Shown here one piece after another: positions 56,051-59,173 of a stretch of 64,000 nt of DNA. Made by a program: the position numbers and the translations under genes. The stretch lies in the NCBI RefSeq assembly GCF_009914755.1, contig NC_060947.1. One strand, 5' to 3'. The notes beneath the pieces were generated by a model. That model saw nothing but the letters and a program-made list of their open reading frames with translations. It made no database searches and was not told where the DNA came from. The number at the start of each line of letters is the position of its first letter. Positions within the stretch are counted from its first letter, which is position 1. Source of the stretch: the human T2T-CHM13v2.0 reference genome, Homo sapiens.

Positions 56051-56757
56051 CTTCAGTGATTGGACTGTCATAAAACTGGGAAGGGGGCCCCTGATATTCT
56101 CCTCTTGTAGGACAGGAAAATCTGGCAGAAACTTTCTGCCAGATTTTTCTCATGGTTACAGGCTCATGATGTAACCTCTGTGTCTTGGTGTAACTTTAAA
56201 ACATATTTTTGCCATTACCAAGCTGGTATCCATAAAAAAATCACAAGAAGTCATTTAAAAACATCACCTAATCATAAAGAAAAACGTCAAACTGTGCCAC
56301 AATGGGAAAAAGTCTAATCCCAAATGTAGGGGTCAAGCTGAAGCCTATCATGTGGGGAATATCAGTTAATATGGCGCCCTCACCTTGAGCCACCTGGGCA
56401 GTGACTGAATTTGTTCAAAGAATATTTCTTTATTGGGTGATGGACCTTTGTGCCATCACAAGCCTTCCCTCTGAAGGGAGCAGTGTTGAGTACCATGCAG
56501 GTCTCCAAAACTGCTAAAAGATGAATACTCCCAAGCTCATCAACTTGAGTGACATGATAAGCATTGTCCCTATAGTTAAACTAAGAAGGAAGAAAATAAC
56601 TAAAAATTTAATAAATTCTTATTAAAATATTTAAAACTTCACATGTTAAATTTAGATTTCTTTACACATTTGAACATTACAGAATAATCCTGTAAATTGT
56701 TAAAATTAGATTAATCATATAAGAACAAGTTAATGAGCTTGTAAAAACTGAGTGTCC

Positions 56758-57560
56758 CTTCTCAAAAGAAGACATTTATGCGGACAACAAACATATGAAA
56801 AAAAGCTCATCATCACTTGTCATTAGAGAAATGCAAATCAAAACGACAGTGAGATACCATTTCACGCCATTTAGAATGGCAATCATTAAAAAGCCAGGAA
56901 ACAACAGATGCTGGAGAGGATGTGGAGAGAAATAGGAACGCTTTTACACTGTTGGTGGGAGTGTAAATTATTTCAACCACTGTGGAAGACAGTGTGGTGA
57001 TTCCTCAAGGATCTAGAACCAGAAATATCATTTGACCCAGCAATCCCAGTACTGGGTATATATTCAAAGGATTATAAATCATTCTACTATAAAGACACAT
57101 GCACACATATGTGTATTGCAGCACTATTCACAATAGCAAAGACTTGGAACCAACTCAAATGCCCATCAATGTTAGACTGGATAAAGAAAATGTGGCACAT
57201 ATACACCATGGAATACTATGCAGCCATAAAAAAGAATGAGTTCATGTCCTTTGCAAGGACATGGATGAAGCTGGAAACCATCATTCTCAGCAAACTAACA
57301 CAGGAACAGAAAACCGAACACCGCATGTTCTCACTCATAAGTGGAAGTTGAACAATGAGAACACATGGACACAGGGAGGGGAACATCACACACTGGGGCT
57401 TGTTGGGGGGTGGGGGATAGGGGAAAGATAGCATTAGGAGAAATACCTAATGAAGATGACGGGTGCAGCAAACCACCATGGCACATGTATATATATGTAA
57501 CAAACCTGCACGTTCTGCACATGTATCCCAGAACTCAAAGTATAATAAAAAAAAAAATAA
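56758..57560 (+). mobile_element. 5'-truncated L1PA (ORF2 end plus 3' UTR)
   Basis: CTTCTCAAAAGAAGACATTTATG...; ORF track 57109-57351 is the L1 ORF2 C-terminus; A-rich tail at about 57542-57560. Confidence 0.96.
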
Positions 57561-58956
57561 AATTTAAAAATCAACTTCTGCGTGGCAACAAAACAAAATA
57601 AAAACCCTATGCAAACTAAAAGACAAATGATAAACTGAGCAAAATTATTTGTAATTCATATTATGGACAAAAGACTAATCTCCCCAAAAAGGCTAATACC
57701 TCCAAACTCATTAACAACTACACTACTGCACTGTTTGTTTGTACAATGGATCACTCAGAGTCAGCTCAGAATCTAAGAGTAAAGTACATGTCAATCCAAA
57801 AATGTGTCCAAATTCACTGAAATACAATGTAGAACAGAAAAGAAAGAGTAATTGGAGTTGCTAAGTACTTTCAAAAGGCTTTATGCTTAACCGTGAAGAC
57901 AGTAAAGAGAGTAAAGCAGCAGTTCGGGAGCCTGTCTGGAGAAGTAAAGGTGATATGGCAGCACACTGCTAGAGACTCCGCTAGACATTTAGCTTAACCT
58001 ATGCATCTCACAAATGGAAAAAAAAAAAAAAAGATAGGTGAGAAAAGATATCATGAGAAAGGTAATTAAGGTAGAAGAATCACACTTTACAAGAAGGTTT
58101 GCTTGATTTCTTTTAAGCTCTAGGCTAGTACAAAATTTAAGATTGATATTACTTAAATTAATAAGAAACACTAAAGGACTCTTCAATTCGCAAGATTAAA
58201 CACTTCCATCTGGAACATCTGATTACTAAATAATAGCCCATAGCTACATTACGCTCCATTTTCTTCTACTTAACTTTATCATTTTAAAAAGGGTGCTGGG
58301 AAGAGGTACGGTAAAACCATCTGCCATAATAAAATGAAAATTATCTCATTAAAAAAAAATCTGAGTGTCCATGCCATCATGACCTACCAGAAGTGCTACA
58401 TCATATGGTTAGTATTTTATAAATTTGTTATTCAAAAATAATGAAAACAATAATGTAAAATAATTTTTTAAAAAAGAAAAAAAATCAAACCTCATCTGAC
58501 TTCATTTAGCCTACATTCTTCGTATTCTAATATACTTTTTTAGAATGAAATATTTAGATGTGAAAGTTAATAAAAGAGAAATGATTGTTCTTAGGGTGTG
58601 GCTTCCTCTAAATAAGTCATGGACGTTCCCAGGATGCCATGAGACTCAACAGGGTTTCCAGTGCAACAGACCATTGCTACCCTGATTCTCTGTAGGAAAG
58701 TTGAATACAGCATTCACAAACTGCTAAATTGCTGCTGAAGTCACCAATGTCTGATATGAGGCAGAAATTTTTTTTGCCTCCAAAGATAATTGTGCTTGAA
58801 ATATAAGATCCTAAACTTTTCCCTCTCTTTCTCTGTTCAAGTGAAAGAGGGTGGGGGTGGGAATTAAAACAAACAGAAATCTGAGAGCAACTCTTTTTCA
58901 GTACATGTAGAAAATGGAGTGTGGAGCATTGAACTTTGAAAATCTGTTATTTCCAG

Positions 58957-59173
58957 GAAACTCAGCCATCCCAAGCTGGTTAAATTCTATGGAGTGTGTT
59001 CAAAGGAATACCCCATATACATAGTGACTGAATATATAAGCAATGGCTGCTTGCTGAATTACCTGAGGAGTCACGGAAAAGGACTTGAACCTTCCCAGCT
59101 CTTAGAAATGTGCTACGATGTCTGTGAAGGCATGGCCTTCTTGGAGAGTCACCAATTCATACACCGGGACTTG
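58957..59173 (+). CDS. BMX: BMX exon 15, kinase hinge to HRDL (T489 gatekeeper; C496 at 59048-59050)
   Basis: TTCCAG| and |GTAAGC, 217 nt. Confidence 0.98.

What the first reader, a model, noticed from the sequence alone, without database searches (positions are those of the whole stretch)
56743..58370. L1PA with an apparent ~790-bp 3' transduction
The L1 5' flank is AAAAACTGAGTGTCC (56743-56757). No copy follows the L1 tail at ~57560, but AAAAAAAAATCTGAGTGTCC appears at 58351-58370, preceded by AATAAA (58328-58333) at proper spacing. So ~57561-58350 sits inside the TSDs and ends in its own poly(A) signal and tail, the hallmark of flanking DNA carried from a source L1 elsewhere. It lies ~590 bp upstream of kinase exon 15 and adds a sense-strand poly(A) signal that could truncate BMX within the kinase domain.
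Basis: partly seen in the sequence, partly recalled or inferred. Interest (0 to 1): 0.75.

Follow-up and report, generated by a model that had tools for sequence, protein, structure and literature searches.

The report
Old L1 carrying chr14 flanking DNA
An ancient, truncated L1 jumping element in an intron of the BMX kinase gene brought along about 790 bases copied from an intron of a Golgi-protein gene on chromosome 14, an ordinary example of a well-known process with no sign that it affects BMX.

Summary
A 5'-truncated L1PA 3' end (56758-57565) is followed by 787 non-L1 bases (57566-58352). The whole block is flanked by one pair of 15-bp target-site duplications (56743-57757 region: 56743-56757 and 58356-58370, 14 of 15 identical).

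The carried segment has exactly one paralogue in the assembly, on chr14, about 91% identical, collinear and unspliced. Homology starts right after the L1 A-rich tail. It stops 19 nt after the AATAAA hexamer, where chrX has an A-run plus the duplication and chr14 continues with unrelated sequence.

The chr14 parent lies antisense in an intron of a Golgin_A5-family gene, so host-gene mRNA was not the template. The L1 part and the carried part are about equally old, roughly 20-40 Myr.

I read this as a genuine old L1 3' transduction (confidence 0.82). One caveat: no progenitor L1 remains at chr14. An Alu with no A-tail sits exactly at the boundary.

The suggested BMX truncation has no support. 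There are 38 sense AATAAA hexamers in the BMX part of the window, and no annotated transcript ends at this site. This is an ordinary instance of a known process, of low interest.

The parts
56743..56757 (+). 5' target-site duplication AAAAACTGAGTGTCC. The pre-insertion site reads TTGT/AAAAAC, i.e. TTTTT/AC on the bottom strand, an L1-endonuclease-type nick site.
   Evidence: (family D4). The endonuclease consensus is recalled, not from a call.
56758..57543 (+). 5'-truncated L1PA body: end of ORF2 plus the 3' UTR. Sense to BMX.
   Evidence: 12412 candidates, 40 scored; 39 non-self copies at 91-92% identity; 11 of 11 relatives start matching at 56758.
57544..57565 (+). The L1's own AATAAA (57544-57549) and its A-rich tail, A11-T-A4-T3. 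This signal was bypassed by the template RNA.
   Evidence: One search shows similarly degenerate A-rich tails in other copies of this age.
57566..58352 (+). Carried (transduced) segment of 787 bp, a copy of chr14 G000:C14:87053667-87054434 (minus orientation). Its first ~125 bp are an ancient L1M-like fragment, which explains why masking reaches 57609.
   Evidence: 89% identity including gaps; 698 of 767 aligned bases identical, K2P 0.097; only 2 copies in the genome; 6 of 6 old-repeat loci match 57600-57691.
58328..58333 (+). AATAAA hexamer of the carried segment, 19 nt before the end of chr14 homology. It reads AACAAA on chr14 today.
58353..58355 (+). Residual untemplated poly(A), about 3 A, inside the A9 run 58351-58359.
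58356..58370 (+). 3' target-site duplication AAAATCTGAGTGTCC.

Best explanation
This is a single L1 retrotransposition event with a 3' transduction, roughly 20-40 million years old.

Inferred sequence of events:
1. An active L1PA element sat antisense in an intron of a Golgin_A5-family gene on chr14 (GOLGA5 by recall), immediately upstream of the sequence that now starts AAAAATCAACTTCTG.
2. Transcription from that L1 ran past its own weak AATAAA and continued for 787 nt of flanking DNA.
3. The RNA was cleaved and polyadenylated about 19 nt after a downstream AATAAA.
4. The L1 machinery nicked the BMX intron at TTTTT/AC and primed on the new poly(A).
5. It copied the flank, the L1 tail and about 800 nt of L1 before stopping (5' truncation at 56758), which created the 15-bp target-site duplications.

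Shown here: the composite anatomy, the duplications, the unique chr14 parent with its exact boundaries, its antisense intronic position, and the similar age of the two parts.

Inferred: that a progenitor L1 existed at chr14. It is absent today, either never fixed or later deleted.

The insertion is a fixed, inert intronic relic. There is no evidence that it alters BMX expression.
For: 1. One pair of 15-bp duplications encloses both the L1 and the extra 787 bp, and there is none at the L1 tail.
2. The extra segment has exactly one other copy in the 3.1-Gb assembly. It is collinear with no intron-sized gaps: 11 small gap events covering 21 columns.
3. Homology to chr14 begins at 57566, directly after the L1 A-rich tail. 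It ends at 58352, 19 nt after AATAAA. There chrX has an A-run plus the duplication, while chr14 continues with unrelated sequence containing a T/GT-rich stretch (TTGTTGCCTTTT) about 20-35 nt on, as expected downstream of a real cleavage site.
4. chr14 is the parent, not a sibling. It has no poly(A) and no duplication there. An old L1M-like repeat matches both sides of the boundary collinearly in 2 of 6 comparison loci, and all 6 match the downstream side.
5. The chr14 boundary is a T/AAAAA endonuclease-type site good enough to have been used by an Alu.
6. The parent lies between + strand Golgin_A5 exons at C14:87051462-87051596 and 87056303-87056413, but in minus orientation. Host-gene RNA therefore cannot be the template, and an L1 promoter supplies the needed antisense transcript.
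7. Ages agree. The L1 terminal branch is 3.1-3.5%. The carried segment is at 4.4-4.85% per lineage.
8. The arrangement of L1 at the 5' side and unique sequence at the 3' side is the one described for transductions (PMC4862182, passages). Described L1 chimeras instead have the foreign RNA 5' of the L1 (bioRxiv 10.1101/2025.02.02.635956, passages).
Against: - No L1PA lies within 7.5 kb upstream of the chr14 parent (the only hit of window 56000-59200 in L009 is the carried segment).
- Exactly at the boundary there is instead an Alu with 15-bp duplications (AAAAATCAACTTCTG) and no A-tail. The progenitor is therefore inferred, and a coincidence is needed: either the same nick site was used twice, or the L1 landed in the Alu tail.
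- The untemplated poly(A) at the 3' end is only about 3 A.
- Eight bases (TAAAATTT, 57558-57565) between the A11 run and the chr14 homology match neither locus. I assign them to a degenerate L1 tail.
- A short second pair of direct repeats, AAAATTT at 57559-57565 and AAAATCT at 58356-58362, fits a two-step rival.
- No sibling insertion sharing the carried sequence exists.
- No outgroup genome was available to show the empty site.
Confidence: 0.82

Rival explanations
1. Two separate insertions. The L1 inserted first with the 15-bp duplications. Later a 5'-truncated retrocopy of an unrelated polyadenylated chr14 transcript landed in the A-run between the L1 tail and its 3' duplication, making its own short A-rich duplication.
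For: - AAAATTT (57559-57565), directly before the chr14 homology, matches AAAATCT (58356-58362), directly after the A-run, at 6 of 7 positions. Extended into the A-run this becomes 10 of 12 (read).
- The implied nick site, TTTT/A in an A-tract, is a preferred L1 endonuclease target (recalled).
- This reading needs no lost progenitor L1.
Against: - The repeat is short and low-complexity, so it is weak evidence.
- The template would have to be an antisense intronic transcript of the Golgin_A5-family gene with no known promoter.
- The L1 is not older than the segment: 3.1-3.5% against 4.4-4.85% per lineage. Both events would have to be nearly simultaneous.
- By my own rough estimate, not a tool result, a non-genic retrocopy hitting one particular ~20-bp tail is far rarer than a transduction. 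About a quarter of insertions carry a transduction according to the abstract of PMC13009371.
Confidence: 0.08
2. A template-switch (or RNA-ligation) chimera. Reverse transcription started on a polyadenylated chr14 transcript, then jumped to the 3' end of an L1 RNA, giving an L1-plus-foreign composite in one event with no L1 ever present at chr14.
For: - One pair of duplications encloses both parts.
- There is no L1 at chr14.
- The 8 unmatched bases at the junction could be filler.
- Template switching and RNA ligation are accepted routes to L1 chimeras (bioRxiv 10.1101/2025.02.02.635956, passages).
Against: - In the described chimeras the L1 is the 3' (primary) template and the foreign RNA is 5'. 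Here the order is reversed.
- The L1 part keeps its complete 3' end and A-tail, so the jump would have had to land exactly on the end of the L1 poly(A).
- The same antisense intronic transcript is required as in the two-step rival.
- The 5' limit of the foreign part falls on an endonuclease-type site used by an Alu. That is expected for an L1 insertion site but not for a transcript end.
Confidence: 0.05
3. A DNA-level event or coincidence. The chr14 fragment was captured as filler DNA during break repair or by duplication next to a pre-existing L1, and the 15-bp repeat is a chance match.
For: Capture of chromosomal DNA at breaks is described (PMC2671141, search listing only). The poly(A) remnant is very short.
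Against: - The segment ends 19 nt after AATAAA and starts at an L1 tail. A DNA-level capture has no reason to respect either boundary.
- The 14-of-15 repeat sits exactly at both outer ends, while only 0.21 chance matches are expected in the whole window.
Confidence: 0.02

Closest known systems
L1 3' transduction (read-through of the L1 poly(A) signal, carrying downstream flanking DNA to a new locus)
   Same: - L1 3' end with its own signal and A-tail, then unique unspliced DNA ending in its own AATAAA and A-run.
- One pair of target-site duplications around everything, and an endonuclease-type nick site.
- A unique parent locus whose homology ends at the cleavage site.
- This matches the description in PMC4862182 (passages).
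   Different: - The progenitor L1 is not present at the parent locus in this assembly; an Alu without an A-tail sits at the junction.
- The event is old, with about 9-10% divergence between copy and parent. Most catalogued cases concern young or polymorphic L1s (my recollection).
- No sibling insertions exist.
L1 chimeric insertions (U6/L1, Alu/L1, mRNA/L1) made by template switching or RNA ligation
   Same: Two unrelated RNAs copied into one insertion in the same orientation, inside one pair of duplications.
   Different: In those chimeras the foreign part is 5' of a 3' L1 piece (bioRxiv 10.1101/2025.02.02.635956, passages). Here the foreign part is 3' of a complete L1 3' end.
Orphan or 5'-truncated processed retrocopies
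   Same: The carried segment alone looks like a retrocopy: it is collinear with its parent and ends at a poly(A) site.
   Different: It is attached to an L1 3' end within the same duplications. Its parent is antisense intronic DNA, not an exon of the host gene.

Membership tests
L1 3' transduction | An L1 3' end, with its own poly(A) signal and A-tail, directly followed by non-L1 sequence in the same orientation | tested here: met
   L1 homology covers 56758 to 57552-57564 in 11 of 11 relatives. AATAAA is at 57544. The non-L1 segment starts at 57566.
L1 3' transduction | The extra sequence ends with its own poly(A) signal and an untemplated poly(A) tail | tested here: met
   AATAAA is at 58328-58333. 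Homology to the parent ends 19 nt later and is followed by an A-run. This is weakly met for the tail: only about 3 A are neither templated nor part of the duplication.
L1 3' transduction | One pair of target-site duplications flanks L1 plus extra sequence, with none between them, at an endonuclease-type site | tested here: met
   The 15-bp repeat is 14 of 15 identical, and these are the only 2 matches in the window. The bottom strand reads TTTTT/AC (the consensus is recalled).
L1 3' transduction | The extra sequence maps to a unique genomic locus elsewhere and is collinear with genomic DNA (unspliced) | tested here: met
   There is one paralogue, C14:87053667-87054434, with 698 of 767 aligned bases identical and only small indels.
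L1 3' transduction | A progenitor L1 directly upstream of the parent sequence. This is confirmatory rather than required, since lost or non-reference progenitors are common. | tested here: not met
   No L1PA match lies within 7.5 kb upstream on chr14. An Alu with its own duplications occupies the junction. Other haplotypes and other primates could not be searched.
L1 3' transduction | An orthologous empty site in species that predate the insertion | not testable with these tools
   No primate genomes are held. states that the assembly has no relatives here.
Template-switch L1 chimera | Foreign RNA copy at the 5' side of a 3' L1 fragment | tested here: not met
   Here the L1 is 5' and the foreign part 3'. 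The family's arrangement is taken from passages read.

The most novel reading that the evidence does not exclude
The AATAAA carried from chr14 (58328-58333), placed sense in BMX intron 14 about 600 bp before the exon that encodes the catalytic loop, is used at a low level as an intronic poly(A) site in some BMX-expressing cells. That would give a primate-specific transcript truncated within the kinase domain (an incomplete kinase domain). Nothing here excludes it and nothing here supports it.
Probability: 0.05. Interest if true: 0.4.

Novelty: new member of a known kind. Interest (0 to 1): 0.2.

Why it matters
It matters little beyond bookkeeping. The result shows that the unmasked 57610-58352 stretch of BMX intron 14 is not ancestral intron sequence. 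It is a roughly 20-40-Myr-old copy of antisense intronic DNA from a Golgin_A5-family gene on chr14, delivered by an L1.

It is a clean worked example of how a transduced tag can locate a progenitor site whose L1 has since vanished. It also flags an odd Alu at that site.

For BMX biology there is at present no consequence. The added hexamer is one of many in the intron.

Tried and rejected
- An Rfam scan of 56500-58900 at E up to 1 gave 0 matches, so no known RNA gene rides in the segment.
- Pfam found no family for the 80-aa L1 ORF fragment 57109-57351. L1 identity rests on DNA matches instead.
- I looked for sibling insertions with a shorter transduction using a 33-nt pattern from the start of the segment at up to 3 mismatches. 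Only chrX and chr14 matched. None of the 6 old-repeat loci L003-L008 has an L1PA 3' end next to its match.
- I tried to order the chr14 Alu and the transduction in time. The Alu is at 12 of 246 non-CpG differences (4.9%) from the majority of 27 Alu copies. The segment is at 4.4% per lineage. These are indistinguishable, so the order is unresolved.
- The L1 subfamily was not assigned. The paper with subfamily consensus data, tried under a recalled PMC id, is not held, and I built no L1 consensus. The age range comes from divergence plus passages in PMC7449397 (L1Pa7-3 at 30-10 MYA, L1Pa5 peak about 25 MYA) and PMC3525338 (L1PA8 about 40 Ma).
- Continuity of the old repeat right up to the chr14 boundary was only partly shown. 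The 190 bp nearest the Alu on the upstream side matched none of the 6 loci at E 1e-3.
- A literature search for BMX + intronic polyadenylation + truncated found 0 papers in the held library. Subscription papers are not covered.
- I found no paper on this particular insertion and ran no dedicated search for it.

Full report
**Observation**

- AAAAACTGAGTGTCC lies at 56743-56757 and AAAATCTGAGTGTCC at 58356-58370. The repeat finder lists them as a 15-nt pair at 93% identity (family D4).
- At up to 2 mismatches these are the only 2 matches on either strand of the window. Shuffles give 0.21 expected, and 1 of 100 shuffles reached 2.
- The second copy is not just anywhere in the window. It sits immediately after the A-run that ends the foreign segment.

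Between the repeats, L1 homology starts exactly at 56758 in 11 of 11 related copies and ends in the A-run at 57552-57564. The whole-genome search gave 12412 first-look candidates. Of these, 40 were scored, and the 39 non-self ones are 91-92% identical over the full 788 bases. The L1's own AATAAA is at 57544, followed by A11-T-A4-T3 up to 57565. Other copies of this age carry similarly degenerate A-rich tails.

**The carried segment and its parent**

A search of the window's own 3.1-Gb assembly with 57600-58350 found one full-length paralogue, on contig C14 in minus orientation (89%, E 1e-270). It also found six short hits confined to the first ~90 bases at 76-88% identity.

BLAST against 10 kb of that locus places the homology at window 57566-58352, equal to C14:87053667-87054434. 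The alignment has 698 of 767 aligned bases identical, 50 transitions, 19 transversions and 11 small gap events. K2P distance is 0.097. A 33-nt pattern from the start of the segment occurs only at these two places at up to 3 mismatches.

The 3' boundary is the telling one. Both copies share ...ATTATCTCATTAA. After that, chrX has A's and the duplication, while chr14 continues GCATCAAGAAC... with a T/GT-rich stretch 20-35 nt further on. The break is 19 nt after the hexamer, which reads AATAAA on chrX and AACAAA on chr14 today. That is the signature of an RNA cleaved and polyadenylated at a chr14 site, so chr14 is the parent and chrX the retro-copy.

The six short hits are copies of an old L1M-like repeat (the family name is from recall).
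- All 6 match the parent just inside the boundary.
- 2 of the 6 (L003, L008) also match chr14 190-290 bp upstream of the boundary, collinearly. This again marks chr14 as the uninterrupted original.
- The 190 bp nearest the boundary matched none of the 6.
- This old fragment explains why NCBI's masking runs on to 57609.

**The parent locus**

In the orientation of the segment, chr14 reads ...CTACAT AAAAATCAACTTCTG [284-bp Alu] AAAAATCAACTTCTG CATGGCAAC.... An Alu with perfect 15-bp duplications therefore sits exactly where a progenitor L1 should end, and it has no A-tail of its own.

No L1PA sequence lies within 7.5 kb upstream. The progenitor is thus inferred, not seen.

Pfam-family searches of the assembly place Golgin_A5 exons on the + strand at C14:87048011-87048181, 87051462-87051596, 87056303-87056413, 87064873-87065148 and onward, in profile order. 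The 87051462 match is just under the curated cut-off, at 31.3 against 31.7 bits. The parent segment therefore lies in an intron of that gene (GOLGA5 by recall) but on the opposite strand.

The template RNA was consequently an antisense intronic transcript. An L1 inserted antisense in the intron supplies exactly such a transcript from its own promoter. The rivals need an unknown promoter.

**Ages**

| Element | Measure | Value |
|---|---|---|
| Carried segment, chrX vs chr14 | Non-CpG differences | 63 of 751 (JC 0.089, i.e. 4.4% per lineage if split evenly) |
| Carried segment, chrX vs chr14 | All sites | 4.85% per lineage |
| Window L1 | Private branch by three-point pairwise method against 11 relatives | 3.5% all sites, 3.1% non-CpG |
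| chr14 Alu | Non-CpG differences from the majority of 27 Alus | 12 of 246 (4.9%) |

The L1 estimate is probably biased low, because the relatives were picked as the closest copies. The L1 is therefore not older than the segment, as a single event requires.

The Alu's age cannot be told apart from the event, so which came first is open.

With passages giving L1Pa7-L1Pa3 at 30-10 MYA and the L1Pa5 peak at about 25 MYA (PMC7449397), and L1PA8 at about 40 Ma (PMC3525338), I place the event at roughly 20-40 Myr, in a mid L1PA subfamily. The subfamily itself was not determined.

**Mechanism and rivals**

The best reading (0.82) is a classical 3' transduction: read-through of the weak L1 signal, use of the downstream chr14 signal, and target-primed reverse transcription at TTTTT/AC in the BMX intron, with 5' truncation.

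The two-step rival (0.08) arises from a short low-complexity repeat, AAAATTT at 57559-57565 against AAAATCT at 58356-58362. That could be the duplication of a separate retrocopy dropped into the L1 tail. Three things argue against it: the antisense intronic origin, the equal ages, and the rarity of such events.

A template-switch chimera (0.05) has the parts in the reverse order to the described chimeras. It also needs a jump onto the very end of the L1 poly(A).

A DNA-level capture or chance match (0.02) does not explain either boundary.

Two things remain unexplained under the favoured reading:
- the coincidence of the Alu with the boundary, and its missing tail;
- the eight unmatched bases TAAAATTT.

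Two scenarios fit these equally. The L1 and the Alu may have used the same nick site independently. Or the L1 may have landed in the Alu's A-rich tail and later been lost together with that tail.

**BMX**

The block is sense to BMX, 587 bp upstream of the exon starting at 58957. That exon encodes part of the kinase domain through HRDL (PF07714, E 2e-25).

The carried hexamer is one of 38 AATAAA and 37 ATTAAA on the sense strand of the BMX part of the window, and one of 7 AATAAA in this intron. The downstream element of the original site was left behind on chr14. The hub's RefSeq table shows no transcript ending there, and the literature search found nothing. The truncation idea is untested speculation.

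**Verdict**

The transduction reading is well supported, with a missing progenitor as the main caveat. The functional claim is unsupported. This is a new instance of a well-known process, of low interest.

Noticed in passing
L009:2435-2718 (minus strand) = G000:C14:87054435-87054718: This AluS-like element (type from recall) has perfect 15-bp duplications AAAAATCAACTTCTG but no A-tail at all. It sits exactly at the 5' boundary of the parent sequence. Either the same endonuclease site was used twice, or the tail was lost together with the vanished progenitor L1.
   Followed up: partly
L009:1690-1695 region (chr14 counterpart of window 58328-58333): The hexamer that must have directed cleavage reads AACAAA on chr14 today and AATAAA in the chrX copy. 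The parent site seems to have lost its signal since the event, or the copy gained it.
   Followed up: no
window 58016-58030: An A15 run inside the carried segment corresponds to A7-TCAAGAG on chr14. This is a local A-tract expansion or replacement after copying.
   Followed up: no
G000:C23:46566626-46567228 (minus) and G000:C5:39418759-39419088 (minus): Two uninterrupted family matches containing in-frame stops look like processed pseudogenes of the chr14 genes. One is Ins134_P3_kin over profile 2-200 with 3 stops, on X. The other is Golgin_A5 over profile 195-305 with 2 stops, on chr5. They were seen only while locating the chr14 genes.
   Followed up: no
window 57566-57691: The first ~125 bp of the carried segment are an ancient L1M-like fragment: 6 of 6 comparison loci match at 76-88%. 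An old L1 piece was thus re-mobilised as passenger DNA by a younger L1.
   Followed up: partly
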